NCBI RefSeq assembly: GCF_030013595.1 | Contig: NZ_CP122768.1 | From: Escherichia coli | Lineage (GTDB): Bacteria > Pseudomonadota > Gammaproteobacteria > Enterobacterales > Enterobacteriaceae | Direction: 5' to 3' (one strand) | DNA: 64,000 bases | In this document: piece by piece, positions 2,748 through 63,182 of the stretch | How the letters are laid out: every line of letters starts with the position of its first letter | How positions within the stretch are numbered: position 1 is the first letter of the stretch | The notes under the pieces: generated by a model | What the model saw: only the letters and a program-made list of their open reading frames with translations | Databases searched by the model: none | Told to the model about the DNA's origin: nothing | Program-made: the position numbers and the translations under genes

Positions 2748-2853
2748 CATAGGGCTTCAGTACGCCATAAATTAACCGTGAAAAACGCAGCCACGTCGTG
2801 AGTACTAACGCGGCTGCGATTGATTATGCGCTTACATTCAAACGTAACAGGGA

Positions 2854-39988: not shown

Positions 39989-40657
39989 ATGCAAGAAAGT
40001 ATACAACTGGTTATTGATTCCTTGCCGTTCCTGCTGAAAGGGGCTGGGTATACGCTGCAACTCAGTATCGGCGGCATGTTTTTTGGCTTACTGCTAGGGT
40101 TTATTCTCGCGCTGATGCGCCTTTCACCAATCTGGCCCGTGCGCTGGCTGGCGCGTTTTTATATCTCTATTTTTCGTGGTACGCCACTCATCGCACAACT
40201 GTTTATGATCTATTACGGCTTGCCGCAGTTTGGCATCGAACTAGATCCCATTCCGTCAGCAATGATTGGTCTGTCGCTAAACACTGCCGCCTATGCTGCC
40301 GAAACGCTGCGTGCCGCCATTTCTTCTATTGATAAAGGTCAGTGGGAAGCTGCTGCCAGTATTGGTATGACGCCGTGGCAGACCATGCGTCGCGCGATTT
40401 TGCCACAGGCGGCGCGGGTGGCGTTGCCGCCGCTGTCGAACAGCTTTATCAGCCTGGTAAAAGATACGTCGCTGGCCGCGACAATCCAGGTGCCGGAGCT
40501 GTTCCGTCAGGCGCAGTTGATTACCTCGCGCACGCTGGAAGTGTTCACCATGTACCTGGCGGCTTCGCTCATCTACTGGATCATGGCGACAGTATTATCG
40601 ACGTTGCAGAACCATTTTGAGAATCAACTTAATCGCCAGGAGAGAGAACCAAAATGA
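39989..40657 (+). CDS. tcyL: cystine ABC transporter permease
   Basis: 222-aa membrane ORF. Confidence 0.92.
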   Translation: MQESIQLVIDSLPFLLKGAGYTLQLSIGGMFFGLLLGFILALMRLSPIWPVRWLARFYISIFRGTPLIAQLFMIYYGLPQFGIELDPIPSAMIGLSLNTAAYAAETLRAAISSIDKGQWEAAASIGMTPWQTMRRAILPQAARVALPPLSNSFISLVKDTSLAATIQVPELFRQAQLITSRTLEVFTMYLAASLIYWIMATVLSTLQNHFENQLNRQEREPK

Positions 40658-41406
40658 GTGCCATTGAAGTCAAGAACCTGGTGAAAAAATTCCACGGTCA
40701 GACGGTGCTGCACGGTATCGACCTTGAGGTGAAGCCTGGCGAAGTAGTGGCAATTATCGGTCCAAGTGGTTCCGGCAAAACCACGTTGCTACGCAGCATA
40801 AATCTGCTGGAACAACCGGAAGCGGGAACCATCACCGTTGGCGATATCACCATTGATACTGCACGTTCATTAAGTCAGCAAAAATCGCTGATTCGCCAGT
40901 TGCGTCAGCACGTCGGGTTTGTCTTCCAGAACTTTAATTTGTTTCCGCATCGTACGGTGCTGGAAAACATTATTGAAGGGCCGGTGATCGTCAAAGGTGA
41001 ACCGAAAGAAGAGGCCACGGCGCGCGCTCGCGAGCTGTTGGCGAAAGTTGGGCTGGCAGGTAAAGAAACCAGCTATCCACGTCGTTTGTCTGGCGGTCAA
41101 CAGCAGCGTGTCGCGATTGCGCGAGCGCTGGCAATGCGTCCTGAAGTGATTTTGTTTGACGAGCCAACGTCGGCGCTGGATCCAGAGCTGGTGGGCGAAG
41201 TCCTGAACACCATCCGCCAGCTGGCGCAGGAAAAGCGCACCATGGTGATTGTGACGCACGAAATGAGCTTTGCCCGGGATGTTGCGGACCGGGCGATCTT
41301 TATGGACCAGGGGCGGATAGTCGAGCAGGGGGCCGCAAAAGCGTTATTTGCCGATCCCGAGCAGCCTCGCACCCGCCAGTTCCTCGAGAAGTTTCTGCTG
41401 CAATAA
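40654..41406 (+). CDS. tcyN: cystine ABC transporter ATP-binding protein
   Basis: 250-aa ORF; Walker A GPSGSGKT; signature LSGGQQQR. Confidence 0.93.
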   Translation: MSAIEVKNLVKKFHGQTVLHGIDLEVKPGEVVAIIGPSGSGKTTLLRSINLLEQPEAGTITVGDITIDTARSLSQQKSLIRQLRQHVGFVFQNFNLFPHRTVLENIIEGPVIVKGEPKEEATARARELLAKVGLAGKETSYPRRLSGGQQQRVAIARALAMRPEVILFDEPTSALDPELVGEVLNTIRQLAQEKRTMVIVTHEMSFARDVADRAIFMDQGRIVEQGAAKALFADPEQPRTRQFLEKFLLQ

Positions 41407-48423: not shown

Positions 48424-48992
48424 TAGCGTACCCTCAGCGAACGTTCGCCGCGTTCCAGATGTGCGCCTGGTACCGGGTTTAATAACTCGGCTGGTGGTGT
48501 TTCTCCACGCGCCAGTATTTCGGCGGCAACCGCCTCCGCAGATTCAATCACTTCTTTAATGGCTCGCTTGTTTGGTGTAATAACCGTTTCTACATCAACA
48601 AGTGACACGCCTTCATACTCATCCGGGATCTTATCTTTGCTATCGATAATTACCCGGATAGCCCCCTGTGCATCAGTAAATGTGTTTTTTGCGGTTTTTA
48701 GTTTATCCAGGCCAGCAGCTTGCAGGCAGGCGAGCATATGCTTCCGAATTGCTTTTTCCTTGCCTTCAAAGGACGTCTTACGGGTAGCCAGGCGAGACAT
48801 TTCTTCAGCGCAGGTACTGGCATTGCCCTGTAAATTACGGCAGATGACCATCATGGCGTCCAGTTTGTCTCCCAGTTCTCCTTCCATACCTTCAAGCGTG
48901 TCGGCGATCATCTCTGGCGTCAGTTCGTCGGAGGTTTCTAACAGGTCAATCAGACTGGCATATTCTTTTGCAATAGCGATAGCAGTGCTCAT
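48423..48992 (-). CDS. Siphovirus Gp157-like phage protein
   Basis: 189-aa acidic ORF; family assignment from recall, tentative. Confidence 0.5.
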   Translation of the reverse strand: MSTAIAIAKEYASLIDLLETSDELTPEMIADTLEGMEGELGDKLDAMMVICRNLQGNASTCAEEMSRLATRKTSFEGKEKAIRKHMLACLQAAGLDKLKTAKNTFTDAQGAIRVIIDSKDKIPDEYEGVSLVDVETVITPNKRAIKEVIESAEAVAAEILARGETPPAELLNPVPGAHLERGERSLRVR

Positions 48993-51214
48993 GCTGTTTG
49001 CTCCTGTGCTGCGGTGAGGGCGGTGAGGCGTTCGGTTTTGATTTCATTCAAACGGCGCAGGCGCGAACCAAGATAAGTTGAATACTCCTTATCACCTTTG
49101 GATTCTGCGGCCTTGCGGTGAACTTCTACTTCCCGCGCAATAAGGCCATAGACTTTATTAACTTCATTGGGGGTTACGGCTGCAGCCAGTGTTTTGGCAA
49201 CACCTGAGAGTCGTTCATCCAGTTCTTCACGCAGTCGGGTAGCATCCTCTGCTTTCTCGCTTGCCTTCTTAATACTGTATTCTGTATTCAGCTCGGCGGT
49301 GTAGGCACTATCGTTATGCATATCCATATAAACATCTGCCGCAAATCCCAGATGAGATAGTGCTTTGACGGTGGCATCAGTAAGAGACTTTTTGGAGGCC
49401 TCTTTTTCCATTACCAGTGCCCCTTTGTTATTTTTTGATATGTAATCCGTGTGGCCATATGACGGAATAAATCCTTTCACTCCGTTCCAGATGTACCAGA
49501 GATCTATCCGGATGGTGTGTACTGACAGGCAGAACAGGGAACCGTCAGCATCCCTGACAGGTTTTTGTCCAATAATTTTCCCTGTCTGATCCTGTATAGG
49601 TTCAAGTAATGGCACACCGCGATCCACTCGCTCCTCCTTGATTTCAACTCCCCAACCAATGCCTTCCATTCCCAGCACTTCAGTCGCACGCATCAAAATA
49701 TATTGTGCGCGTATGGAGTGCAGTCCTGCACCGTAATCATTATGTGTGACATACGCAGGATCGGTCCGCTGAACGCGATTCCAGATAGCCAAATTTGCTT
49801 TGCTCTGGTCATCATTCATTGCTGACAGATAATGCTCCATGCGAATTGATGCAGTTTTTTCCTCGGCATGGGGCGGCTCAACCAGCGCGTCAACGTTCTG
49901 CACCAGGTCTTTTACCTGCTCGCTAAGTTTTTCTTGTGGAGGAGTCTCTTCTGCCGGGGTAATAGCTGCAGGTTCCCTCTGTGATACGGCGTTATTTTCA
50001 GGTACGTCATACACATGGCGAGGCGTGACAAACTGCTCACGCAACTGCTGCAAACTACGTTCTCCAGCATTTGCTGCTTCGCTTTTTTCGCCCTGATTTG
50101 AGGGTGTTTCTGACATCATTCCATCAATTGAGAATCGCCCGCCGCCGTGGTTGGTGACTTTTACATCATCCTTTGGTGCTGTTTCCTTTGGCTTCTCTTC
50201 AACAGCATTTGCATCACGCTGCCCGTTAGCTTGCAGCCAGTTGTCGATGTGACTGCGCAGGGATTGCGGGAAGTGGTACGTGTCTTTTGCGGGGGCGCTC
50301 TGAATAACACCGAATACTGATGCGCGGTCATAGGCAAGGATCTGATCCGTTGTGCGCAAGGCCATTGACCAGCGTTTAAAATCCTCCCGATCCTGGCTGA
50401 TTATTTCGTCTGCCGCTTTCAGGACGCTGGGGGTGATTTTTTCCGGGCCAACGGGTAACAGGGCGCAGGCAATTTCACGATCCAGTGTGGCGTGAGTCTG
50501 TTGGTAAGGACGTGCGGATGCTGTTTCTGGTTTTACCTCCGGCAGCATTTCATCGCGTTTACCGGGATTCTCTACCCATTTTTTTATAAATTTGGAGATA
50601 GTCCAACTGGTCGGGTTTTGTTCCTGGGTATCGCAACTTGCCAAAATTGCATGTACCAGATTATTCAATCCAGCAATATGCATGTACTCGATGGGCTTAC
50701 ACGCCACCATGGCATCAAGAACGATGCGGTTAAACGCGTCAACCTCATCCTCACTGTCAGTATCACTGTTGTCGAGCATCTCCAGGTATTCACGCGTCTG
50801 CGCAAGCAATTCACTGTCGACTTCGTTGGCGTCGTGGCTGAACAGCAGGACGGCGGCGAAGCGTTCACGAGCCGGCAGTTTCATCAGGTCGTTAACCTGT
50901 GCGATATCTGCTGAACCGCTATCTGAATCAGCGGGGGTGTTAACTACCCATTTTTCGCCATCAAAACTGTGTTCTGTGGCAAACGTCTCATCAAACTCAC
51001 CGACGCCAGGGCGCGGTTGGCCCGGGGCATCTTCCCAGATTTTAGGTTTGAAATAGTTGTCGCCGTGGTCAGGGTAGGCTTCCCACAATTTGCCGATGAT
51101 GATGTTCTCGGCAACTTTTTTGTTAGGGGCGTCGATGGCGATGGCCAGCGCCGGGATCGCGCCGTTTTTGAGCGCGCCTTTTTTCGCTTCTAACAAGCCG
51201 TTAAAGATGGTCAT
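48989..51214 (-). CDS. large phage protein: acidic N-terminal region fused to Rad52-like single-strand annealing domain
   Basis: 741-aa ORF; C-terminal FCLSVHTIRIDL...SYGHTDY...KALSHLGFAADVY resembles Rad52/Sak core. Confidence 0.55.
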   Translation of the reverse strand: MTIFNGLLEAKKGALKNGAIPALAIAIDAPNKKVAENIIIGKLWEAYPDHGDNYFKPKIWEDAPGQPRPGVGEFDETFATEHSFDGEKWVVNTPADSDSGSADIAQVNDLMKLPARERFAAVLLFSHDANEVDSELLAQTREYLEMLDNSDTDSEDEVDAFNRIVLDAMVACKPIEYMHIAGLNNLVHAILASCDTQEQNPTSWTISKFIKKWVENPGKRDEMLPEVKPETASARPYQQTHATLDREIACALLPVGPEKITPSVLKAADEIISQDREDFKRWSMALRTTDQILAYDRASVFGVIQSAPAKDTYHFPQSLRSHIDNWLQANGQRDANAVEEKPKETAPKDDVKVTNHGGGRFSIDGMMSETPSNQGEKSEAANAGERSLQQLREQFVTPRHVYDVPENNAVSQREPAAITPAEETPPQEKLSEQVKDLVQNVDALVEPPHAEEKTASIRMEHYLSAMNDDQSKANLAIWNRVQRTDPAYVTHNDYGAGLHSIRAQYILMRATEVLGMEGIGWGVEIKEERVDRGVPLLEPIQDQTGKIIGQKPVRDADGSLFCLSVHTIRIDLWYIWNGVKGFIPSYGHTDYISKNNKGALVMEKEASKKSLTDATVKALSHLGFAADVYMDMHNDSAYTAELNTEYSIKKASEKAEDATRLREELDERLSGVAKTLAAAVTPNEVNKVYGLIAREVEVHRKAAESKGDKEYSTYLGSRLRRLNEIKTERLTALTAAQEQTA

Positions 51215-51565: not shown

Positions 51566-52561
51566 AGCGACTCCTTGGTGATGTATACTCGGGACCGATC
51601 AGCGAATATTGATCAGCTTCCATAGCGTCAGTGTCGTTGGTCTTTCCTCATCACAAGTTTGGTCACTTGTGATAAATCCGAATGGTTTGGTCGCCGTTCG
51701 GGGTAACTGGCCCGCCTTGTGCGGGTCTTTTGCTATCTAAAGGGTGCCGGTTACGTTTCCGGCGTCGTTATGTTTCCATCACGACCGTACGGGGCTGGTC
51801 TTTCCTGTTTTGAGCTGGTCAGGCTCATGGTCAACGCTGGTCAGGCGTGGTACTTCCTCCGGTCTTTCCCTGGTGTCACGCTGCGGGTTTGGCCTCTCCT
51901 GTTGGGGACTCAGGCACAGCGATAAAACCTGGCTGTGTGAAAAAATGGCCCATCGTGCGGACTGGGCAAAGGCTAAACACAGCAAATTGATGATGGGCGC
52001 CCGGAATCGAACCGGGTAACGGGCAGGGAGTTCCCGTTAAACACCTGTTCACCACAACCGGGAGCGCACTCCGCCATTTCAAAATTTAACGACAAAGCTC
52101 AAAGTTGAGTCGATGAAGTGCGCTCTCGTGTTGTAGCCAGGACTCTTCCCTGGTGGTCACACCGTATCGCCTTGATGGTGAATCAATCGCTCATACCTGG
52201 CTGTGGCTTGCACATTCCGGCTAGCTGCTATGGAGACAACGCGTTAAGGCTCCGCTTCCATCCAGACCGCTTCGACACATGTGCCATATGCCGGCGAAGT
52301 CTTTCCCTCTGTCATCGTGTTGGCGCCGACGCGCAAAATTTGATGCCGTCTTTCCGGCTGTCAGAACGTGTTTCTGAACAACTGCCGCTGGGTAAGCGTT
52401 GTTGATGAAAGTGACTTTACAATTTGTATTTGTAATGGTCAACGTATTTTTAAAAAATAATTTGTAGTTAGGGGCAAAAAAATATTCACTGTGTAAAGGT
52501 GTTTTTGTGTTAGGGGGAAAGTTGCATGCCAGCAGCGGCTGGCCTGGAAATTTGAACTGAA

Positions 52562-52975
52562 CTATTTTGTCTGGTTTTTGGCTTCAAGTAGTTCTTTTAG
52601 CAGTAGATCGAAGTGCTCTCTTTTTTCTTTTAGCTCATTGATTAATTTATTTTTTTCGCTCTCAGGCAGTCCTCTGAATAGTTGCAGTAGAGCCTGTTCT
52701 TGCGGGGTTAGTTCTTGATTGTAATTACCCGGGTGTAGCGTGGATTCATCCAAATATTCACCTTCATTCATGAAGAAAAAATGAACAGGGTATCCGGTCA
52801 CTTTTGCTAGCTTGTCTAATTTATCTTTTCTTGGAGTTACCCCATTACACCATGCCTGAACTGATTGAGCCGTAACCCCAATATGGCGAGCTAACTCAGA
52901 TTGAGACCAGCCTAAGTCTTTTAGAATCCGTTGTAGTCGGCTAGCAAAAGCCATGTTTTTCGTTTTTGTGTTCAT
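52562..52975 (-). CDS. phage repressor-like HTH protein (cI-like)
   Basis: ORF 52562..52990 opens on TTG; HTH (GWSQSELARHIGVTAQSVQAW); divergent from cro-like gene; start uncertain. Confidence 0.7.
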   Translation of the reverse strand: MNTKTKNMAFASRLQRILKDLGWSQSELARHIGVTAQSVQAWCNGVTPRKDKLDKLAKVTGYPVHFFFMNEGEYLDESTLHPGNYNQELTPQEQALLQLFRGLPESEKNKLINELKEKREHFDLLLKELLEAKNQTK

Positions 52976-52994
52976 ACCGTAAGGATACAAGGTT

Positions 52995-53060
52995 TAATTG
53001 TAGGGAGCATTGCAAATATAATTTGTAATTACAGTTATGATTTGTAATGATGGCGCGGAC
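52995..53060. promoter_or_regulatory. candidate operator/promoter region between divergent repressor and cro-like genes
   Basis: Repeated ATTTGTAAT half-sites (ttgcaaatataatttgtaattacagttatgatttgtaatga). Confidence 0.45.
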
Positions 53061-53073
53061 ACAAGGAGTCCAT

Positions 53074-53304
53074 ATGGATAAACAACTGCAAGACAAAATT
53101 CTTTCCGTAATGAGTCAATCCGAGTTAGGGCGGCGATTAGGGAAAAAACCACAAACGGTAAGCCTCTGGTTCAAAGGAAGGGTTCCCGGTGAAGAGGTTT
53201 TGCGCACATCTGAAGCTCTTGAATGGCGCGTGACCCCCCATGATCTTAGACCGGATCTTTACCCAAACCCAGATGACAGCTTGCCTAAAACGAAAGCAGC
53301 TTAA
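53074..53304 (+). CDS. Cro-like HTH regulator
   Basis: ORF 53047..53304; ATG 53074 after AAGGAG; HTH (SQSELGRRLGKKPQTVSLW). Confidence 0.7.
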   Translation: MDKQLQDKILSVMSQSELGRRLGKKPQTVSLWFKGRVPGEEVLRTSEALEWRVTPHDLRPDLYPNPDDSLPKTKAA

Positions 53305-53362
53305 CTGTTGGTGAGCCCCAAATCTGATTAAGCGTAATCAATTTTTAGCGACAGGAGACGCT

Positions 53363-53839
53363 ATGGAAAACCAAGAGGAATTACAAAAAGAGATTTTGAC
53401 CTGGGCGGCAAGGGCAGGGCAGGAACTCGTCACGATTGAAATCTGCCGGGCCTGGTTCAGTCAGGGACGCAATGATGAGTTGAGACTACATGAATTTGAG
53501 GACGCGGACGGCAATGTGGACTGGAGAGCCATCAACAACAATCGGCAGAAAATCTTTCGCTGGTTACGTGGCGAGACAACGGCGGCGCGCCGAAAAACTC
53601 AGGTGCTGGCCAGTGTGATGAAAGCCGTGCTACCCGCAGAACGGCGGGCGCGTCTGGAGTCGCCGGGCGATCCCGTTTTGCTGGCAACGCTGGCGGCAAA
53701 AGAAGGGGTGGAAGCGATTAACGCTGTACATCTCCACTTCGCGCCAGAGATAACTATTCAGGAAATTGACGAAGCAATAGCGGCGCTGGTAGCGACGCGA
53801 GGGGCAGTGATAAGCACTGCGCAAGGCCATCATGCATGA
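53363..53839 (+). CDS. hypothetical phage early protein
   Basis: 158-aa ORF after cro-like gene. Confidence 0.5.
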   Translation: MENQEELQKEILTWAARAGQELVTIEICRAWFSQGRNDELRLHEFEDADGNVDWRAINNNRQKIFRWLRGETTAARRKTQVLASVMKAVLPAERRARLESPGDPVLLATLAAKEGVEAINAVHLHFAPEITIQEIDEAIAALVATRGAVISTAQGHHA

Positions 53840-53878
53840 GCGCCTGACCAGCGTTTAACTTATACCGAGGAAAGACCG

Positions 53879-54103
53879 ATGTTAAGACATATTGACCGCA
53901 TTACCTGGCGTAACGGCTGGCACCTGAATGGACGCCCGGCACATGTTGCAGAGATCCAACCTATTTTTGATGGGCGTATGGCTGCCGCGCTTTCGGTGTG
54001 GGAGCAGTATGAATCCAGGAAGGTCGAGTTGCGCGACAAAGGGCTGAGCAATGCGGACTATGAAGCCGGTTGTCGTCAGATAGCCGAAGCTCTGGAGATC
54101 TGA
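53879..54103 (+). CDS. hypothetical phage protein
   Basis: 74-aa ORF preceded by conserved leader ...accgaggaaagaccgATG. Confidence 0.45.
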   Translation: MLRHIDRITWRNGWHLNGRPAHVAEIQPIFDGRMAAALSVWEQYESRKVELRDKGLSNADYEAGCRQIAEALEI

Positions 54104-54105
54104 GT

Positions 54106-55182
54106 ATGAGTCGTTTGCTGATTAACGAAAACCCCCTTCAGGTCCTGCCCACGTTGGCATGCACTATAGGGTTGAATGAAGCCATCGTTCTACAGCAAAT
54201 CCACTACTGGCTGAATTCATCTCAAAATTTCTTCGAAAATCGCCACTGGGTGTACAACAGTGTGACCGATTGGCAAGAACAATTCCCGTTCTGGAGCGAG
54301 TCGACAATAAAACGCGTGCTGGCCAATCTGGAAAAATTGAATGTGGTATTTACTGGGAACTTTAACAGTGATGCCTGGGATAAAACCAAGTGGTATTCAA
54401 TCAATTATGCCCAGTTATGTAAGATTGAAGAGACAACATTCCCTGTGGCCAATCGATTAGGTCAAGTTGACCCAATCGAAGAGGTCAATGTGACCCAAGC
54501 ATCAGGTCAAGTTGACCCATGCGCTAAGGTCAAAATGACCCAATCTCTTACAGAGAATACAACAGAGAGTACTACAGAGAGTACTACAGAGATAAAAGAT
54601 CCCCCTTACCCCCAAAAGGGGGAGGGCGAGGAAATCATTCTCGCTGACGCTCAAAAAGCTCTGAACTACTACAACGAGAAAGTCGGTACACGCTGCCGCG
54701 ACGTTAAACCGTTTGTCATGCTGCTGACTGCCACCACCACCCGCGCTGGTTACAGCGTGGCTGAGATTCAGTTAGTAATTCGTTGGGTTATTGCGACATG
54801 GCGCCGTCGTAGCGGAAGCGTGCCGAAACCTGCGAACATTTGCCGCGTAAACCGGTTTGACGGATATCTGGCTGACGCTGAGGCGTGGGCCACTGCTGAG
54901 GCTGCCGTTGACCCTGCTGAAGTTGTGAAGGGCTACAACGAGATTCTGGGCGACCTGCTACCTATAGCTGAAATTGATACTGACCGCCGTCGGGCAATCC
55001 TGCGCCTGCTGGCACATATGCGCACGCAAACTCTTGGCGCATTTATCGGCTACTTCGAAAAATTCCGCGATAACGCCCCAGACTTCTATTTCGGCGGCGA
55101 ATATCGCACCGGCTGGCGGGCAGGGTTTGATTACCTGATGAAGCCAGAAACACTGCGTAAAACCAGGGAAGGGGCATTATGA
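54106..55182 (+). CDS. phage replisome organizer (O-like initiator)
   Basis: ORF 54070..55182; ATG 54106 after GGAG; iterons inside the coding sequence. Confidence 0.7.
   Translation: MSRLLINENPLQVLPTLACTIGLNEAIVLQQIHYWLNSSQNFFENRHWVYNSVTDWQEQFPFWSESTIKRVLANLEKLNVVFTGNFNSDAWDKTKWYSINYAQLCKIEETTFPVANRLGQVDPIEEVNVTQASGQVDPCAKVKMTQSLTENTTESTTESTTEIKDPPYPQKGEGEEIILADAQKALNYYNEKVGTRCRDVKPFVMLLTATTTRAGYSVAEIQLVIRWVIATWRRRSGSVPKPANICRVNRFDGYLADAEAWATAEAAVDPAEVVKGYNEILGDLLPIAEIDTDRRRAILRLLAHMRTQTLGAFIGYFEKFRDNAPDFYFGGEYRTGWRAGFDYLMKPETLRKTREGAL
54459..54542 (+). repeat. four iterons AGGTCAAnnTGACCCA at 22-23 bp spacing (candidate ori)
   Basis: Copies at 54459, 54482, 54504 and 54527; followed by tandem acagagagtact repeats. 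Confidence 0.7.
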
Positions 55183-56570
55183 ATCCAGAAGAACTGGAAG
55201 CGATCGTTCTCGCTGGTCTGATTAACGGTGGCGCGACGCCTGACGCGTTTGATGTGATTGCCACTACTCCGGAGGAAGCCTTCAGCATCGTGTTTCACCG
55301 TCGCGCTTTCAGCGAAATCAAAAAGCAGGCACTGGCGAACGGCATGATCGACATGTTGTTTATCAGCGAAGCGCTGGGCGGTTCCAGCCTTGCGGATCTG
55401 TCTCAAATATCCCGGATCCCGGCAACGGTACCGAATCTGAAAGGCTATGCCGGGAAAATGGTGCGGGCATGGCGGAGCCGCAAAATGGCGGCATTGTTGC
55501 AATCTGGCGCGGATGGTATCCGTAACGCTGTAAACCAGAGTCAGCGTGATGAGGTTATTGAATCTCATGTTGCTCAGGTGCTGGATATGAGCGCCGCTAC
55601 CGGCACAGTCCAGCCGGTACACATCAAAGAGCTGTTACCGCTCTACATTGACACCGTTGATAAACGGATGTCTGGCGACGCGCAGGAAATGATGCTGAAA
55701 ACCGGAGTCGAGGATCTGGATGTCGCCCTGGGCGGTATCAACATGACCGACCTTGTTGTGGTTGCCGGTCGTCCAGGCATGGGGAAAACGGAATTTACCC
55801 TGAAGATTATCGATGGCGTTACCGCAGATGGCGGCGGCGCACTGTTTTTCAGCATGGAAATGGGCGCTCAGCAGATTGTTGAACGTACCGTTGCCGGGGC
55901 TGGGAATATGTCCACGTCGCGTCTGCGTAATCCAAAAGAAATGGACGATGAGGATTTGACCAGATTAACCGCCGCGCTTGCAATCATGCAGGATCGCGAT
56001 ATCTGGATTGTTGATGCCACTGATTTGACGATTGAGCAGATCCGCGCCATTGCAGAGACTCATAAACGCCGTTATCCGCACCTGAAGTTGATTGGTGTTG
56101 ATTACATGGGCCTGATCAAAAAACCGAAGGCCGAGCGCCACGATCTCGCTGTCGGGCATATCTCCCGCAACATGAAGACTATGGCCATGCGTCTGCATAC
56201 CCCTGTTTTTGCTCTTAGCCAGCTTTCCCGCCAGGTGGATTCTCGACCTGCTGGCCAGCGTCGCCCGGTGATGTCGGACCTGCGCGATTCCGGCAGTGTT
56301 GAGCAGGACGCTGACAGCATTTTGTTTTTGTACCGCGATGAAGTTTACACACCTGATTCACCTGCAAAGGGTATCGCCGAGGTGATTATCGGTAAAAACC
56401 GTTCTGGCGGGGCAGGTGAAATTATTTATCAGGAATTCCGGAATGGGCATTTCCTGCCAATTGATCAACACGTAGCACGCGAAAAATTACGCATCCAGAA
56501 GGAGGCAGAGCAACCGAGAAAACGTGAAAAACGGTATTCAAACAAAAACTTTAATACGGACCCATTTTAA
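55179..56570 (+). CDS. DnaB-family replicative helicase
   Basis: 463-aa ORF; Walker A GRPGMGKTEF. Confidence 0.85.
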   Translation: MNPEELEAIVLAGLINGGATPDAFDVIATTPEEAFSIVFHRRAFSEIKKQALANGMIDMLFISEALGGSSLADLSQISRIPATVPNLKGYAGKMVRAWRSRKMAALLQSGADGIRNAVNQSQRDEVIESHVAQVLDMSAATGTVQPVHIKELLPLYIDTVDKRMSGDAQEMMLKTGVEDLDVALGGINMTDLVVVAGRPGMGKTEFTLKIIDGVTADGGGALFFSMEMGAQQIVERTVAGAGNMSTSRLRNPKEMDDEDLTRLTAALAIMQDRDIWIVDATDLTIEQIRAIAETHKRRYPHLKLIGVDYMGLIKKPKAERHDLAVGHISRNMKTMAMRLHTPVFALSQLSRQVDSRPAGQRRPVMSDLRDSGSVEQDADSILFLYRDEVYTPDSPAKGIAEVIIGKNRSGGAGEIIYQEFRNGHFLPIDQHVAREKLRIQKEAEQPRKREKRYSNKNFNTDPF

Positions 56571-56608
56571 CCACGCATGACCAGCGTGAAATAACCGAGG
56601 AAAGACCA

Positions 56609-57019
56609 ATGACCACCATTTCAGGCAAATTAGAGTACCCGTCGGACAAAGGACACATAGACGACGGTAAAAACTATCTCGACGTCATTTTGTGGAATAT
56701 GAACGCCGGGCCACGTGCGCGCACTCGTGCGGTTTTTGTACCAAGACCCAAAGCAGGCAATTTTTCAACACCAGCTCAGCCTGCCCGTCAGGCATCCGTA
56801 GCCGCAGCGCCAGCAGTGAAATGTAAGGGTAAAACGCACATCGGGATCGCGATTCGCAGAAATGGTGAGCGGCAAGTGAAACTCCACGAAACAGCGACAA
56901 CCTGGTGTGCTTCACCGCATGAAACTTACGACAAGATAACCGGGCAGCGCATTGGTGCGCCTGGTCGCTGTCGCCTGCTGTTGAGCTCCATCACTCCGAT
57001 AGAAAAGAAAGGGGCGTGA
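56609..57019 (+). CDS. hypothetical phage protein
   Basis: 136-aa ORF preceded by conserved leader ...accgaggaaagaccaATG. Confidence 0.45.
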   Translation: MTTISGKLEYPSDKGHIDDGKNYLDVILWNMNAGPRARTRAVFVPRPKAGNFSTPAQPARQASVAAAPAVKCKGKTHIGIAIRRNGERQVKLHETATTWCASPHETYDKITGQRIGAPGRCRLLLSSITPIEKKGA

Positions 57020-58419: not shown

Positions 58420-58593
58420 TTATTGGTTTCTGAGGAAAGCGATTCTTGAAAGGGTCATTTGCGTCTGGCAGTCGACCATTTTCTTGACTTCAGCATCTGT
58501 TCCTTTCTTGACTTCAGCATCTGTTCCCTGCATTGAAACTTTACCGCACATAGCATCCTTAGTTTTGATCCACTGGCGCTGAGAAGGCAGCAA
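58420..58593 (-). pseudogene. 3' fragment of lipoprotein gene split by IS629
   Basis: Joining across the IS with one copy of the ACT target duplication restores one frame to TAA at 58420..58422. Confidence 0.65.
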
Positions 58594-58649
58594 CTTGAAC
58601 CGCCCCGGAAATCCTGGAGACTAAACTCCCTGAGAAAGAGGTAAACAGG

Positions 58650-58976
58650 ATGACTAAAAATACTCGTTTTTCCCCCGAAGTCCGTCAGCGGGCGATTCGT
58701 ATGGTTCTGGAAAGTCAGGATGAATATGACTCACAGTGGGCGGCAATTTGTTCCATTGCCCCAAAGATTGGCTGTACGCCGGAGACTCTGCGTGTCTGGG
58801 TTCGCCAGCATGAGCGGGATACCGGGGGCGGTGATGGTGGGCTCACCAGCGCTGAACGTCAGCGTCTGAAAGAGCTGGAACGTGAAAATCGTGAACTGCG
58901 CCGCAGTAACGATATCCTTCGCCAGGCTTCCGCTTATTTTGCGAAGGCGGAGTTCGACCGCCTCTGGAAAAAATGA
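58650..58976 (+). CDS. IS3-family transposase OrfA
   Basis: 108-aa [25 protein letters not shown] recognised as IS629/IS1203 OrfA. Confidence 0.9.
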
Positions 58977-59863
58977 TGCCACTGCTGGATAAGCTGCGTG
59001 AGCAGTACGGGGTCGGACCGGTATGTAGCGAACTGCATATTGCCCCGTCAACGTATTACCATTGTCAGCAACAGCGACATCATCCGGATAAACGCAGTGC
59101 CCGTGCGCAGCACGATGACTGGCTGAAGAAAGAGATACAGCGCGTATACGATGAAAATCACCAGGTATACGGTGTGCGTAAAGTCTGGCGTCAGTTGTTA
59201 CGGGAAGGTATCAGAGTGGCCAGATGCACTGTGGCACGTCTCATGGCAGTTATGGGACTTGCCGGTGTTCTCCGGGGTAAAAAGGTCCGCACTACCGTCA
59301 GCCGGAAAGCCGTTGCCGCAGGCGACCGCGTAAACCGTCAGTTCGTGGCAGAACGACCTGACCAGCTGTGGGTGGCTGATTTTACTTACGTCAGCACATG
59401 GCAGGGCTTCGTCTATGTGGCGTTTATCATTGATGTGTTTGCCGGATACATCGTGGGGTGGCGGGTCTCATCGTCTATGGAAACGACATTCGTGCTGGAT
59501 GCGCTGGAGCAGGCGTTGTGGGCCCGTCGTCCGTCTGGCACCATCCATCACAGCGATAAAGGCTCTCAGTATGTGTCACTGGCCTATACGGAGCGACTAA
59601 AAGAAGCCGGATTACTGGCATCAACAGGGAGTACAGGCGACTCGTATGACAACGCGATGGCTGAGAGCATCAATGGTCTTTACAAAGCGGAGGTAATACA
59701 CCGTAAGAGCTGGAAAAAACGTGCAGAAGTGGAACTGGCCACACTAACGTGGGTGGACTGGTATAACAATCGACGATTGCTGGGAAGGCTGGGCCATACT
59801 CCTCCGGCAGAAGCAGAAAAAGCTTATTATGCTTCCATCGGAAACGATGATCTGGCAGCCTGA
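58973..59863 (+). CDS. IS3-family transposase OrfB (DDE integrase-like)
   Basis: 296-aa ORF overlapping orfA in -1 frame. Confidence 0.9.
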
Positions 59864-59905: not shown

Positions 59906-60680
59906 ACTCTTTTTTCTTCGCCGGGGTTAACTTGCTCCAGACGGTATTCAAATCAGAGTCAGCATTTGCAAATGCCATTCGGGACTGATCAAGGCTTTCA
60001 GATTTTTGCGGCTGAAGTTGTGCCTGCCTCTCTTTTTGCTTCTCCGCCTCATACCTGGCCTGTTCCTGTGCCCTGAGTTGCACCTGTTGTTCCGCTTCAA
60101 TTTGACTCTGTTGGGCATCCTTAGCCTGCTGGATTTTCTGCTGCTCAACGATCGGGTTGATAATGGAAAGCGATGTCAGTAAAGCGGCGCCCACTGATAT
60201 CGGATTATCAGAAGAGGTTTTTACAAAAACGTTTTTCTGATCGTCGGTCGCCTGCACGGTGTAGGTGATACGCCTTGAAAAGGCGTTTGCGTTGTTCTCC
60301 AAAAACAGATTTTCCATTTGCTTATCGAGATTACGATTAAAATTCTTTCTGTAAGCATCTGAAAGCTGGACGTACTCGTTCGCAGGTAGAGTCATCGTCA
60401 CGGTCCCTTCACAAGTTTTCATTGTGCTGCCCGTGTCACTTGATGTTGTGGAGATTTCAGAGACGGCTAGTTTGATCTTGTCCAGTGTGCTTCGTTTGGT
60501 CTGATTAGTGACATCAGGGTATTTATCGACCTGTTCAGAGAGTCCTTCATAAGCAGATTTTTTTAATAAATCCATGAGAGCTGATTGGGTCATTTCCGAA
60601 GAACAACCGATCTCATCTTTTTTGTTATCACAGCCTGTAAGGGCAATGGCGAGTAAGAGTACTGAGTATTTTAATCTCAT
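59906..60680 (-). pseudogene. 5' fragment of lipoprotein gene split by IS629
   Basis: ORF 59670..60680 has lipobox LTGC; after codon 258 it reads into the IS629 right end. Confidence 0.7.
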
Positions 60681-61436
60681 GAATTCCCTTTAGAGTAAGG
60701 ATTGGTTTTTAAGACGCGGTCTGTAATCAGTTCCGAGAGCTACAGTAAACAACGCTGAGCACTGAACGCATCACAGGCAAGGTAAAAGGTGATATCGGCA
60801 AAGGCTGTGAAACCTTTAATTCAACAGATGGGAACGGTATGCACAGGATCCTGTAACGACGCTCCCAAAACTGGAAACCTGTAAGGCATGTTTTCGCTGC
60901 TGAACTTAATATACGAACCTGCACTATCATGAACATATTTTATATCGTTATACCCCGAGTGATTGTGCCCGGCAATGGATAGTGTCCTGGAGGAATTATT
61001 TCTAATGTAAAAGGAAGATATTTAATTTCGATGTGGGATTATTACCTGTCTATAAGAACAATGACTTTATCTGGCAGTAAGCAGACATCTATTAGCTTAC
61101 TGAAGGGGGGCTGTGATTTGACCATTAACGGCATGAGATATATTGTCTATTGGTGATTGTTCTGAGGCCGATATCACGTTAACGACCAAGTAAAATAACA
61201 TGAAAAATTATTTATTAATGATTGCCAGCATTAAATGTAGTGATACCTCATTAGCAGGGTGCTCCGCAATGACTGCGATGAACTAAAAAATCAGTCATAA
61301 CCATGAAAAAAACAAGTGTATCAGCGAAATTAAATCTGGTGAAAGCATTTAATTACTTGTTAATGACGCAATAAAAACATACTATGGAAATGTAACAGCT
61401 AATCTACAGTTCTTGTCAATAGGGGCGCACAAGAAA

Positions 61437-62027
61437 ATGTTAAATGAATTTAAGGAAAAGCTACTATCCGACGATATCCGCGATGTCTACCAACGATACC
61501 TTTTAGGACATGACATCTGGTATTTTCGGGAACAAAAAAAATCAATAACCTTTGCTAAAGATTATGATGAGTTTAAGCTATATATGTCTAAGAAGCTTGA
61601 AATTCATGTAAATAATATTGCAATTGTTGGAAGTGCTAAGATGGGATTCAGCTTGAGCCCTGATAAAAATTATCGAACATTTAACGATGAGTCAGATATA
61701 GACTTGGTTTTAGTATCCGACAGAATTTATAAATCTTCCTGGATGGCATTTATTGAATTACAATCAAAGAATTATTTGCCTGTATATGCTCCTGTAGCTA
61801 AAAATATTTTCAAAGGATTCGTGTCATTGAAGGAGTTAGATATTAGAGTCGATTTTTTTAATAAATGGTCCCGTAACGTTGAACCATTAAAAAAAGACAT
61901 TCAAACTATTTTTGGAATACCTAACGACATCAACTACAGAATTTATGACTCTTGGGAGTCCGTTGAACGCTATCACATAGCTGGGTTGAATAGTCTAAAA
62001 GATAAGTTACAAGGACAATTGATATGA
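61437..62027 (+). CDS. small Pol-beta-superfamily nucleotidyltransferase-like protein
   Basis: ORF 61413..62027 opens on TTG, first ATG 61437; IVGSAKMGFS...ESDIDLVLV fits the GS...DxD pattern; low GC; stop overlaps next start (ATGA). Confidence 0.65.
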   Translation: MLNEFKEKLLSDDIRDVYQRYLLGHDIWYFREQKKSITFAKDYDEFKLYMSKKLEIHVNNIAIVGSAKMGFSLSPDKNYRTFNDESDIDLVLVSDRIYKSSWMAFIELQSKNYLPVYAPVAKNIFKGFVSLKELDIRVDFFNKWSRNVEPLKKDIQTIFGIPNDINYRIYDSWESVERYHIAGLNSLKDKLQGQLI

Positions 62028-63082
62028 GAGCTATTGATCTAATTAAAGTTGAATCGAAAGACATTAAATGGTTGACGGATAATTTGAAATCAGGTGTTAT
62101 TACAGTTGATAATTCATATCAGAGAAAATATATCTGGCAGCAAAAAGACCAAGTGGCCTTAATTGAGACAATATTAATTGGCTACCCAATCCCTGAGATT
62201 TACCTTTGGGCAAATAATACTGATCCTGACACTGGAGATACTAAATATTCAATTGTAGATGGACAGCAAAGGCTAACCACAATCCAGCGATATTTAAATG
62301 ATGAGTTTAAGTTAAGCAAAGCAGCTATAGATGATAAAGAAGCCGACTATAGTGGGAAAATTTTTTCAGAATTGTCGGCAGATAACAAACGTGATTTTTG
62401 GCGATACCAATTCTCATCCAGATTTATTAATGAATCATTGAGATATGATGAGATTGCAAAGTTATTTTTACGTCTAAATAGAACAAATACTACGTTAAAT
62501 CCTCAAGAACTTCGTAATGCTGAATTTAATGGCGAGTTTTTAAGATTAGCCGAAGAAATTGCACAAAATGAATTTTGGGATAATTATAAGATATTTACTC
62601 AGTCAGATATCCGTCGGATGCAAGACATTCAATTCATCAGCACATTATTGATTTTCTTACGAATGGGTATTGAGCAGGATAATACACAAAAATCAATTAA
62701 TCGAGTGTATGATCAATACAATGAGAATTACCCTGAGGCGACTGAGGACAGAATTATCTTTAACGAAGTGTTAAGGATCATATCTCAAATTATCAACAAT
62801 AAACAAGTATTAGAATCAGTTGTAAAGAAAAAAGGCCATTTGTATTTTATATTTGTGCTGGCATACTATTATTTACAGCTTAGTAAATCTAAGCTTGTTG
62901 ATATGAATGTTATTAGTTCAAAGCTCGAGGATTTTTTTAATATTTATGAGTTAAATGAACAAGATAACCCCCATCCACTGGTTGAGGAATATAGATTCCT
63001 CAGCCAAGAGGGTTCAAAGAAGAGTCATAACAGACAGCGTAGATTTGATATTTTGAAAGAATTTTGCTCTTTACATGATTAA
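62024..63082 (+). CDS. DUF262 (ParB-like, GmrSD N-terminal type) protein; no recognisable nuclease domain
   Basis: 352-aa ORF with YQRKYIW and IVDGQQRLTT motifs; helical C-terminal half without HNH/DUF1524 motifs. Confidence 0.75.
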   Translation: MRAIDLIKVESKDIKWLTDNLKSGVITVDNSYQRKYIWQQKDQVALIETILIGYPIPEIYLWANNTDPDTGDTKYSIVDGQQRLTTIQRYLNDEFKLSKAAIDDKEADYSGKIFSELSADNKRDFWRYQFSSRFINESLRYDEIAKLFLRLNRTNTTLNPQELRNAEFNGEFLRLAEEIAQNEFWDNYKIFTQSDIRRMQDIQFISTLLIFLRMGIEQDNTQKSINRVYDQYNENYPEATEDRIIFNEVLRIISQIINNKQVLESVVKKKGHLYFIFVLAYYYLQLSKSKLVDMNVISSKLEDFFNIYELNEQDNPHPLVEEYRFLSQEGSKKSHNRQRRFDILKEFCSLHD

Positions 63083-63182
63083 ATGACGAAAGTGGGTTGT
63101 TTATAAGAATTGAATAAACAACCCATCATTTTAATGTACTCTGAATCCTCTCATTCTTAGTGAAATATTGTTTTTAGAACAC

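What the first reader, a model, noticed from the sequence alone, without database searches (positions are those of the whole stretch)
54459..54592. Iteron array and tandem repeat inside the replisome organizer gene
Four AGGTCAAnnTGACCCA iterons at 22-23 bp spacing, then 2.5 copies of acagagagtact (encoding TESTTESTTE) and an A/T-richer stretch. This matches a lambda-like origin embedded in the initiator gene.
Basis: partly seen in the sequence, partly recalled or inferred. Interest (0 to 1): 0.4.

Follow-up and report, generated by a model that had tools for sequence, protein, structure and literature searches.

The report
Prophage replication origin inside initiator gene
The repeats are real and are most likely the replication origin of an E. 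coli P22/lambda-type prophage, lying inside the gene of the protein that binds it. That layout is textbook, but the initiator's DNA-binding half and one origin element are shared with phages of Gram-positive bacteria.

Summary
Observation confirmed. Four AGGTCAAnnTGACCCA repeats start at 54459, 54482, 54504 and 54527. A 12-bp tandem array (3.7 copies) follows at 54549-54592. All lie in the linker-coding middle of a 358-aa gene (54106-55182) that abuts a DnaB-like helicase gene.

The lambda-like origin reading is supported by comparison, not by experiment:
- The iterons are read in two alternating frames, so they are DNA repeats.
- In 81 related genes, residues at the start of the predicted recognition helix co-vary with the iteron half-site.
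- The modelled N-domain is a winged helix closest to the plasmid pSK41 RepA_N origin-binding domain.
- The C-terminus and the helicase are homologous to P22 gp18 and gp12.
- The annotated P22 origin has the same layout, including the same CCCCCTTACCCCC-AAAGGGGGA palindrome. I therefore extend the origin to 54623.

The 12-mer array corresponds to the lambda/P22 "A/T-rich" region. Its CAGAGA units are conserved at the DNA level in many initiator genes of Firmicutes and Proteobacteria phages: frames shift, and GAG:GAA is 50:4 against 122:273 elsewhere. Its composition stays constant, and it is not A/T-rich relative to low-GC hosts.

Verdict: an ordinary kind of element and a new member of it, with one moderately interesting side result.

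The parts
54106..55182 (+). Replication initiator gene (358 aa). RefSeq calls it 'hypothetical protein' in this genome and 'replication protein RepO' for near-identical alleles.
   Evidence: ORF and translation. PHROG 428 'replication initiation protein', E 1.5e-72. No Pfam, NCBIfam or PDB sequence hit. RefSeq annotation.
54106..54456 (+). N-terminal winged-helix domain (aa 1-117), inferred to bind the iterons. The predicted recognition helix spans residues 65-77.
54392..54433 (.). Low-stability stretch on the left of the iterons (GC about 0.32). Whether it belongs to the origin is not established.
   Evidence: Nearest-neighbour stability profile and composition.
54459..54474 (.). Iteron 1, AGGTCAAGTTGACCCA
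   Evidence: read in frame phase 2
54482..54497 (.). Iteron 2, AGGTCAATGTGACCCA
   Evidence: read in frame phase 1
54504..54519 (.). Iteron 3, AGGTCAAGTTGACCCA
   Evidence: read in frame phase 2
54527..54542 (.). Iteron 4, AGGTCAAAATGACCCA. It matches 15 of 16 bases of the Staphylococcus-phage iteron AGGTCAAAATGACCCG.
54549..54600 (.). 12-bp tandem array (ACAGAGA-nTACn, 3.7 copies) plus ATAAAAGAT. The top strand is purine-rich. This is the proposed unwinding and helicase-entry region, the counterpart of the lambda/P22 'A/T-rich' region.
   Evidence: TRF. Stability minimum. Conserved CAGAGA module in relatives. Alignment with the P22 and lambda origins.
54601..54623 (.). G/C palindrome CCCCCTTACCCCCAAAAGGGGGA at the right boundary of the origin. 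The annotated P22 origin has the same element, read there in a different frame.
   Evidence: It is kept in relatives that carry three different N-domain types.
54598..55182 (+). C-terminal domain (aa 165-358). Its last 92 residues (from nt 54907) are homologous to the C-terminus of P22 gp18. It is inferred to recruit the helicase.
   Evidence: BLASTP to P22 gp18: 38% over 92 aa, E 7e-18. PHROG 345 'O-like' on aa 264-357. This C-domain is always followed by an abutting DnaB-like gene, 8 of 8 against 1 of 83. It has 659 relatives fused to at least 3 N-domain types.
55179..56570 (+). DnaB-like replicative helicase gene, overlapping the initiator stop codon
   Evidence: Pfam DnaB_C 2e-69 and DnaB 5e-07. 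46% identical to P22 gp12, E 8e-137.
53879..54103 (+). Small conserved ORF (74 aa) directly upstream of the initiator. Its function is unknown and its role in the module is untested.
   Evidence: PHROG 2465, E 9e-42. A gene of the same size sits in the same position in L006, L007, L008 and L213.

Best explanation
Window 54459-54623 is the origin of replication of a lambdoid (P22-type) prophage. It lies in the linker-coding middle of its own initiator gene (54106-55182).

Inferred mechanism:
1. The N-terminal winged-helix domain (aa 1-117) binds as an oligomer to the four semi-palindromic iterons (GGTCA-n3-TGACC, one every 22-23 bp).
2. The resulting nucleoprotein complex destabilises the adjacent purine-rich 12-bp repeat array (54549-54600), which is bounded on the right by a G/C palindrome (54601-54623).
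3. The C-terminal domain, related to the C-terminus of P22 gp18, brings in the phage-encoded DnaB-like helicase made from the abutting gene (55179-56570). The host primase and polymerase then take over.

Shown here: the anatomy, the DNA-level nature of both repeat sets, the fold of the N-domain, the homologies to P22, and the co-variation patterns.

Inferred, not shown: binding, unwinding, helicase recruitment and origin activity.
For: 1. The repeats are real and non-random.
2. The iterons alternate between two reading frames (phases 2, 1, 2, 1), so they are repeats of DNA, not of peptide.
3. Position: they lie between two domains of a phage replication initiator (PHROG 428), which is followed by a DnaB-like helicase gene.
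5. Specificity co-variation: in 81 distinct genes, the residues after FPFW (S64-E65-S66 here) track the iteron half-site. ES goes with GGTCA in E. coli, Klebsiella, Staphylococcus and Bacillus lineages; ER with GGACA; EN with GTACCCA; [LV][IM] with GTATCA; and so on.
6. Module swapping: an E. coli allele with a different, distantly related N-domain has different iterons (GGAAAACCAC) but the same 12-mer array, palindrome, C-domain and helicase.
7. This C-domain is always followed by an abutting helicase gene: 8 of 8 against 1 of 83, p = 1e-10.
8. P22: gp18 C-terminus 38% identical (E 7e-18) and gp12 46% identical (E 8e-137). The annotated P22 rep_origin inside gene 18 has iterons, then an ACAAAAGACAAT tandem, then CCCCCTTACCCCCTAAAGGGGGA.
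9. Lambda has the same order of elements: iterons, then ACAAAAGA-rich tract, then inverted repeat (PMC7466680).
10. The 12-mer array is one of the two least stable stretches of the gene.
11. Natural alleles vary by whole units: 2, 4 or 6 iterons and 2.7 or 3.7 copies of the 12-mer. Lambda and Stx-phage origins differ in the same way, with 4 against 6 iterons.
Against: - There is no experimental evidence of binding or of origin activity for this element or any close relative in the material I could read.
- The initiator is not a sequence-level member of lambda O (PF04492) or of RepA_N (PF06970).
- The putative unwinding region is only moderately A/T-rich (GC 0.38). In low-GC relatives the homologous module is no less stable than the rest of the gene. 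Its role as a simple unwinding element is therefore not secure.
- Relatives with a PF13730 N-domain and the same C-domain lack the CAGAGA array.
- This prophage copy carries IS insertions, so the phage as a whole may be defective even though the replication genes are intact.
Confidence: 0.78

Rival explanations
1. The repeats are protein-level features only: a repetitive, flexible Thr/Glu-rich linker between two domains, with no cis-acting role in the DNA.
For: The 12-mer period is a multiple of 3 and encodes TE(N/S)T repeats. Copy number varies between alleles without breaking the frame. In relatives most CAGAGA units (102 of 117) are read in the same T/P/S-Glu frame. In pSK41 Rep the central region is a dispensable linker at the protein level (PMC5703833).
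Against: The iterons have a 22-23 bp period and alternate between two frames. The same CAGAGA-containing DNA is read in other frames in 15 of 117 units, giving Q-R or R-D/E instead of T-E. In the linker, Glu is encoded GAG:GAA = 50:4, against 122:273 in the rest of the same genes (p = 7e-19). The residue before Glu varies (T, P, S, A) while its codon keeps -CA. CCCCCTTACCCCC is read in different frames here and in P22.
Confidence: 0.04
2. The iterons are initiator-binding sites used mainly for control (autoregulation, copy-number control by handcuffing, or exclusion of related phages), and the site where replication starts lies elsewhere.
For: Iterons of plasmids and of lambda also mediate control and inhibition phenotypes (title and abstract of PMC3349717). 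RepA_N NTDs form tetramers (PMC5703833). No direct evidence places the start site here.
Against: The whole three-part layout (iterons, purine-rich repeats, palindrome) matches the lambda and P22 origins. No second iteron cluster exists in the window. The two roles are not exclusive.
Confidence: 0.08
3. The iterons are the origin, but the 12-mer array is not the unwinding site. It would be a slippage-prone recombination joint where modules are exchanged, kept similar by frequent exchange, and melting would occur elsewhere, for example in the A/T-richer 54392-54433.
For: The mosaic breakpoint between alleles falls exactly at the boundary between iterons and 12-mers. Copy number is polymorphic. 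The module is not less stable than its surroundings in low-GC relatives. PF13730-type relatives do without it. The left flank is equally unstable.
Against: The module is conserved at the DNA level between Firmicutes and Proteobacteria phages whose flanking coding DNA has diverged to 44-60% protein identity. It holds the same position as the lambda tract described in the cited paper as crucial for unwinding (PMC7466680) and as the equivalent tract inside the annotated P22 origin, and it resembles their ACAAAAGA units.
Confidence: 0.12

Closest known systems
Phage P22 replication module (gene 18 initiator, gene 12 DnaB-like helicase, origin inside gene 18)
   Same: The initiator gene is directly followed by a DnaB-like helicase gene (46% identity, E 8e-137). 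The last 92 residues of the initiator are homologous (38%, E 7e-18). The origin lies inside the gene with the same order of elements: 4 direct repeats at about 22 bp, a tandem purine-rich 12-mer (ACAAAAGACAAT against ACAGAGAGTACT), then CCCCCTTACCCCC-AAAGGGGGA.
   Different: The N-terminal DNA-binding domain is unrelated at sequence level: P22 has PF04492, the window protein has none. The iterons differ (TCGGTAAAAC against GGTCAAnnTGACC). The window protein has about 90 extra residues between the linker and the shared tail.
Phage lambda ori-lambda and O protein (and the Stx-phage variants)
   Same: The origin is in the middle of the initiator gene: four iterons with internal symmetry, then a purine-rich, easily melted tract, then an inverted repeat. 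N-terminal domain and iterons form one specificity unit. Iteron number varies between relatives, 4 against 6.
   Different: No homology is detectable to the lambda O N-domain (hhalign probability 0.07%). The partner is a phage-encoded helicase, not a P-type loader of host DnaB. The tract next to the iterons is 38% GC with CAGAGA units, not a strongly A/T-rich run.
RepA_N theta replicons of Gram-positive plasmids (pSK41, pTZ2162) and the Vibrio cholerae PLE RepA
   Different: There is no match to Pfam PF06970. The context is a prophage early operon, not a plasmid. The C-domain is paired with a phage helicase, whereas the pSK41 CTD binds DnaG primase. No antisense-RNA control region was seen.
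Bacillus phage SPP1 replisome organizer G38P and oriL
   Same: The origin is embedded in the organizer gene and consists of iterons (AB boxes) plus an adjacent unwinding element. The organizer works with a phage-encoded helicase (PMC5737612).
   Different: SPP1 also needs a separate loader (G39P). No sequence relation was tested or found. The window protein gave no Pfam hit at all.
Initiators of Staphylococcus, Bacillus and Listeria temperate phages annotated 'DnaD-like helicase loader' or 'replication initiation protein' (for example phage P954 gp20)
   Same: The N-domain belongs to the same family (about 56-61% identity in the alignments, 52% in the tblastn match). Iterons have the same type and position, in some Staphylococcus phages nearly the same sequence. 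The same junction and CAGAGA module follow.
   Different: The C-terminal domains differ (DnaD/DnaB_2 or Phg_2220_C), as do the downstream partners (a loader plus helicase, or none). I know of no experimental origin mapping for these, and none turned up in my searches.

Membership tests
Lambda-type origin embedded in the initiator gene (architecture) | Three or more direct repeats with internal dyad symmetry in the middle of the initiator gene | tested here: met
   Four exact matches at 22-23 bp spacing against 0.36 expected by chance. They lie at codons 118-146 of 358.
Lambda-type origin embedded in the initiator gene (architecture) | Easily melted A/T-rich tract directly next to the iterons on the distal side | tested here: inconclusive
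   54547-54601 is one of the two least stable 40-mers of the gene, but GC is still 0.38. The homologous module in low-GC relatives is not less stable than its gene.
Lambda-type origin embedded in the initiator gene (architecture) | Inverted repeat bounding the tract on the far side | tested here: met
   CCCCC-N4-GGGGG at 54609-54622 (single-strand fold -8 kcal/mol, z -1.9). The same element occurs in P22 (z -3.0).
Lambda-type origin embedded in the initiator gene (architecture) | Initiator-dependent replication of the cloned segment | not testable with these tools
   Needs an experiment.
Lambda O / P22 gp18 protein family (Pfam PF04492 Phage_rep_O) | N-terminal Phage_rep_O domain | tested here: not met
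   No Pfam hit at E <= 0.01, whereas lambda O and P22 gp18 score 6e-36 and 7e-38. hhalign of the N-domain profile against lambda O gives probability 0.07%.
P22 gene 18/12-type 'initiator plus own helicase' module | C-terminal region homologous to gp18 and an abutting DnaB-like helicase gene homologous to gp12 | tested here: met
   38% over 92 aa (E 7e-18) and 46% over 459 aa (E 8e-137). The C-domain always occurs with an abutting helicase gene, 8 of 8 against 1 of 83.
RepA_N replication initiators (Pfam PF06970) | Sequence match to the RepA_N domain model | tested here: not met
   No hit for the window protein or for any of 24 family members, even at E <= 10.
RepA_N replication initiators (Pfam PF06970) | Winged-helix NTD with the RepA_N/DnaD-NTD fold | tested here: met
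RepA_N replication initiators (Pfam PF06970) | [quoted passage not shown] | tested here: met
   GGTCA-AAA-TGACC in iteron 4 and in most relatives. The definition is taken from PMC7145576 and PMC5703833.
DnaD-like helicase loader (the PHROG 6493 label given to homologues) | DnaD C-terminal (DDBH2, DnaB_2) domain | tested here: not met
   The window protein has no DnaB_2, DnaD or Phg_2220_C hit. The Staphylococcus homologue has DnaB_2, and the Klebsiella and Bacillus homologues have Phg_2220_C. Only the N-domain is shared.

The most novel reading that the evidence does not exclude
The 12-mer array would not be a generic A/T-rich unwinding tract. It would be a sequence-specific origin element: CAGAGA units spaced 11-12 bp apart, preceded in most relatives by a CCAATACC junction. 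This element is conserved at the DNA level in many phage initiator genes of both Firmicutes and Proteobacteria, and lambda and P22 carry ACAAAAGA units in the same position. It keeps about 40% GC whatever the host composition. It travels with one N-domain superfamily regardless of the C-domain and helicase partner. That would point to recognition, as double- or single-stranded DNA, by the conserved part of the initiator or by a universal replisome component, in the way DnaA-trios are read at bacterial oriC.
Probability: 0.3. Interest if true: 0.6.

Novelty: new member of a known kind. Interest (0 to 1): 0.35.

Why it matters
**For annotation.** A gene labelled 'hypothetical protein' can be called the prophage replication initiator. 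Its origin can be placed at 54459-54623. Relatives of the gene occur in 74 of 5,426 complete E. coli genomes, 23 of them with a full-length copy.

**For biology.** The locus is a clean natural example of modular origin evolution. An origin-recognition unit (N-domain plus iterons) of a family common in Gram-positive phages is joined, at a conserved DNA element, to a P22-type helicase-recruiting unit.

**Two by-products are testable:**
- A simple residue-to-base correspondence at the start of the recognition helix. Glu-Ser goes with GGTCA, Glu-Arg with GGACA, and several more pairs follow the same rule. This could serve as a specificity code for this initiator family.
- A CAGAGA repeat module conserved as DNA across phyla. 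Its function (melting, helicase entry, priming or protein binding) is unknown.

Tried and rejected
- **Sequence classification of the initiator failed.** Pfam, NCBIfam and PDB sequence searches gave nothing. The first two family scans used a start coordinate one base off and returned errors.
- **An RNA explanation is unsupported.** Rfam found nothing relevant in 52000-57000.
- **No host-factor sites.** There is no sigma-70-like promoter near the origin. There is no DnaA box (TTWTNCACA) or IHF consensus in 53800-55300.
- **The minus-strand terminator-like hairpin** at 54623-54600 is not above the chance count, so I only note it.
- **Single-linkage clustering** of N- and C-domains merged almost everything and told me little. 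I replaced it with direct comparisons.
- **My first codon test was partly circular,** because it anchored the linker on the motif itself. I repeated it with the linker defined only by the end of the periodic array.
- **I first misread P0001** as a different N-domain type. Its sequence shows it is the two-iteron allele of the window gene.
- **Literature.** Searches for 'TENTTE' and for 'CAGAGA' plus 'iterons' returned nothing relevant. The RepA_N review by Weaver et al. 2009 is not held.
- **Plasmids.** The tblastn search found homologues mainly on Bacillus and Lactobacillaceae phage-plasmids, and none among the listed hits that I recognised as experimentally characterised.
- **The idea that the CAGAGA module is universal was rejected.** PF13730-type initiators with the same C-domain lack it.
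Full report
**Observation**

AGGTCAAnnTGACCCA occurs at 54459, 54482, 54504 and 54527, with spacing of 23, 22 and 23 bp. It occurs nowhere else in the 64-kb window. At up to two mismatches, 0.36 matches are expected by chance and no shuffle reaches the observed number. Tandem Repeats Finder reports a period-23 array (54449-54545) and a period-12 array (54549-54592, 3.7 copies, unit TACAGAGAGTAC). Each 16-mer is itself a small palindrome, GGTCA-n3-TGACC. The four copies start at codon phases 2, 1, 2 and 1 of the enclosing gene, so they encode two different peptides (GQVDP and EVNVTQ/KVKMTQ). They are therefore repeats of DNA, not of protein.

**Setting**

The window is E. coli chromosome and is 100% identical to NZ_CM149870. 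A lambdoid prophage is inserted after pgsA and a tRNA-Gly/Cys/Leu cluster, from about 45.4 kb onwards. The repeats lie in a 358-aa gene (54106-55182) that RefSeq calls 'hypothetical protein' here and 'replication protein RepO' for near-identical alleles. The gene order is:
- a cI-like repressor (52562-52990, minus strand)
- a Cro/YdaS-like gene
- a CII/YdaT-like gene
- a 74-aa ORF
- the initiator
- a DnaB-like helicase gene (55179-56570) that overlaps the initiator's stop codon

The protein matches PHROG 428 'replication initiation protein' (E 1.5e-72). It matches nothing in Pfam, NCBIfam or the PDB by sequence.

**The protein is a chimera of two units, and the repeats sit at the joint**

- Residues 1-142 are 52% identical to initiators of Staphylococcus phages and 47-54% identical, over slightly shorter stretches, to those of Bacillus and Listeria phages (labelled 'DnaD-like helicase loader' and similar).
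- Residues 165-358 match enterobacterial prophage proteins.
- The last 92 residues are 38% identical to the C-terminus of P22 gp18 (E 7e-18).
- The helicase is 46% identical to P22 gp12 (E 8e-137).
- The C-domain has 659 relatives in Enterobacteriaceae. They are fused to at least three different N-domain types: the window type, a 'MNILPLL' type and a PF13730 type.
- Among 91 distinct related genes, a C-domain like this one is always followed by an abutting DnaB-like gene. The count is 8 of 8 against 1 of 83 for other C-domains (p = 1e-10). C-domain identity and helicase identity rise and fall together.

I infer that the C-domain recruits the phage's own helicase, as proposed for P22-type modules. 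This step is inferred, not shown.

**The N-domain is the likely iteron binder**

The RepA_N literature describes the layout seen here. The NTD binds four 'Rep boxes' located centrally in the rep gene. The central protein segment encoded by the origin is a linker. [quoted passage not shown] At sequence level, however, the family is neither RepA_N (PF06970) nor lambda O (PF04492; hhalign probability 0.07%).

**Comparative evidence that N-domain and iterons form one specificity unit**

1. A protein-anchored search found 552 relatives of the N-domain in IMG/VR. This search is unbiased with respect to the linker. Of about 50 non-redundant loci read, nearly all have 3-6 repeats at 22-23 bp directly after the domain, built on an nnnCAAAATGnnn core.
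2. In 81 distinct genes, the three residues after the conserved FPFW motif co-vary with the iteron half-site. Here these are S64-E65-S66, at the start of the predicted recognition helix.
   - (S/G)ES goes with GGTCA in E. coli, Klebsiella, Staphylococcus and Bacillus lineages.
   - SER goes with GGACA.
   - SEN goes with GTACCCA.
   - S[LV][IM] goes with GTATCA.
   - SAM and STM go with GTGTTCA.
   - SNV goes with TTGCTCA.
   - SIR goes with ATGGCCA.
   - One pair of closely related Staphylococcus phage proteins differs in just this way.
3. An E. coli allele (CFSAN061769) carries a different N-domain, only distantly related (hhalign 94%, 22% identity). It has different iterons (GGAAAACCAC, three copies). 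From the first base of the 12-mer array onward it is near-identical to the window.
4. Alleles differ by whole units: 2 iterons (HY220605, P0001), 4 (the window, E24377A, SE11) or 6 (L130), and 2.7 or 3.7 copies of the 12-mer. Lambda and Stx-phage origins differ in the same way, and two iterons plus the A/T-rich tract are the minimal lambda origin (PMC7466680).

The lineages in point 2 are not independent, and I did not run a phylogeny-aware test.

**Comparison with known origins**

The annotated origin of P22 lies inside gene 18. It consists of TCGGTAAAAC repeats, then cacaaaagacaatatacaaaagacaataaatacaaata (a 12-bp tandem of ACAAAAGACAAT), then CCCCCTTACCCCCTAAAGGGGGA. The window has, in the same order, its iterons, the ACAGAGAGTACT tandem, and CCCCCTTACCCCCAAAAGGGGGA at 54601-54623.

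The shared 13-mer is read as P-L-P-P in P22 and as P-P-Y-P here, so it too is conserved as DNA. Lambda follows the same plan: iterons, then ACACAAAAGACACTATTACAAAAGAAAAAAGAAAAGA, then an inverted repeat.

I therefore extend the origin to 54623. I read the 12-mer array as the counterpart of the lambda/P22 'A/T-rich' unwinding region. It is one of the two least stable 40-mers in the gene and is 72% purine on the top strand.

**The 12-mer array is more than an A/T-rich stretch**

About 100 of these carry the motif directly 3' of a 22-24 bp periodic array, and at least 15 different iteron sequences are represented. The rest look like chance hits.
- In the unbiased, protein-anchored set, the 60 nt after the last iteron hold 40 CAGAGA hexamers in 1,200 nt. 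The rest of the same genes hold 7 in 16,107 nt, a 77-fold difference. The spacing between hexamers is mostly 11-12 bp.
- Conservation is at the DNA level. Of 117 units, 15 are read in other frames (Q-R or R-D/E instead of T/P/S-E). The same 16-mer AGAGAATACACAGAGA is translated E-N-T-Q-R in some genes and R-E-Y-T-E in others.
- Glutamate in the linker is encoded GAG:GAA = 50:4, against 122:273 elsewhere in the same genes (odds ratio 28, p = 7e-19).
- The module keeps about 40% GC whatever the host. It is among the least stable parts of enterobacterial genes but is not less stable than the rest of low-GC Firmicutes-phage genes.
- It is not universal. PF13730-type initiators with the same C-domain have their own A-tract iterons and a different intervening sequence, though they keep the G/C palindrome.

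I found no description of this module in the papers I could search. Absence from that library does not prove novelty.

**Mechanism, with its status**

- Shown: the anatomy, the DNA-level nature of both repeat sets, the fold of the N-domain, the homologies to P22, and the co-variation and module-swapping patterns.
- Inferred from lambda, P22, SPP1 and RepA_N precedents: N-domain oligomers bind the four iterons. The complex melts or remodels the adjacent 12-mer array, up to the G/C palindrome. The C-domain delivers the phage helicase, and host primase and polymerase follow.
- Unknown: whether the CAGAGA units are read by a protein, and which one.

This prophage copy carries IS elements, so the phage may be defective. 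The initiator, origin and helicase are nevertheless intact, and the gene is 100% identical in one further genome and 98-99% identical in about twenty others.

**Verdict**

The element is a new member of a well-known kind: a lambdoid, P22-type origin inside its initiator gene. It has an unusual origin-recognition half of RepA_N-like fold, shared with Gram-positive phages. The more interesting residue is the CAGAGA module conserved across phyla, together with the apparent residue-to-iteron code. Both need experiments.

Noticed in passing
window 54601-54623 (minus strand 54623->54590): On the minus strand the G/C palindrome is followed by TCTTTTATCT, which looks like an intrinsic terminator for antisense transcription running into the origin. 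P22 has the same arrangement: hairpin, then a T-rich complement of the purine tract. The count of such sites in the region is not above chance (3 found, 3.2 expected).
   Followed up: partly
window 53879-54103 (+): A 74-aa ORF (PHROG 2465, function unknown) sits directly upstream of the initiator. A gene of the same size holds the same position in alleles with all three N-domain types (L006, L007, L008, L213). It therefore travels with the C-domain and helicase half of the module and could be an accessory replication or regulatory protein.
   Followed up: no
window 53047-53304 and 53363-53839 (+): The genes in the Cro and CII positions of the early right operon match Pfam 'YdaS toxin' and 'YdaT toxin' (RefSeq labels the second 'toxin YdaT family protein'). 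PHROGs calls the second one a CII-like activator. The toxin labels look misleading in this context.
   Followed up: no
window 54106-54456 versus 54624-55182: The N-domain and origin part of the gene is lower in GC (0.44-0.46, with stretches at 0.32-0.43) than the C-domain part (0.55) and the helicase gene (0.52). This fits a different, lower-GC ancestry for the origin-recognition half. The closest non-enterobacterial relatives are Firmicutes phages, and one Staphylococcus-phage iteron matches iteron 4 at 15 of 16 bases.
   Followed up: partly
window 40072-41280, 48657-49870, 61882-63110: There are three IS insertions: ISVsa5 (IS4-like) splitting yecU, an IS3-family element in the prophage recombination region, and another IS3-family element further right. 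Just beyond the window a further ISVsa5 splits the terminase large-subunit gene, so this prophage copy is probably defective.
   Followed up: partly
window 60124-61769 (+) and 58420-59367 (-): Cargo genes lie inside the prophage late-early region: a hypothetical gene plus a DUF262-domain gene (a domain I recall from GmrSD-type anti-phage nucleases; not checked here) and an LprI-family lysozyme-inhibitor gene.
   Followed up: no
window 1654-2830 (-): RefSeq annotates ompC as a frameshifted pseudogene in this strain.
   Followed up: no
L213 2270-2400 (Salmonella prophage; relatives with a PF13730 N-domain): A third initiator type with the same C-domain and helicase has its own A-tract semi-palindromic iterons (GTGCCACCAAAAAGCACAG and variants). 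In place of the CAGAGA array it has a direct repeat of GAACCAGTCA. This is a natural comparison case for testing what the middle element does.
   Followed up: partly
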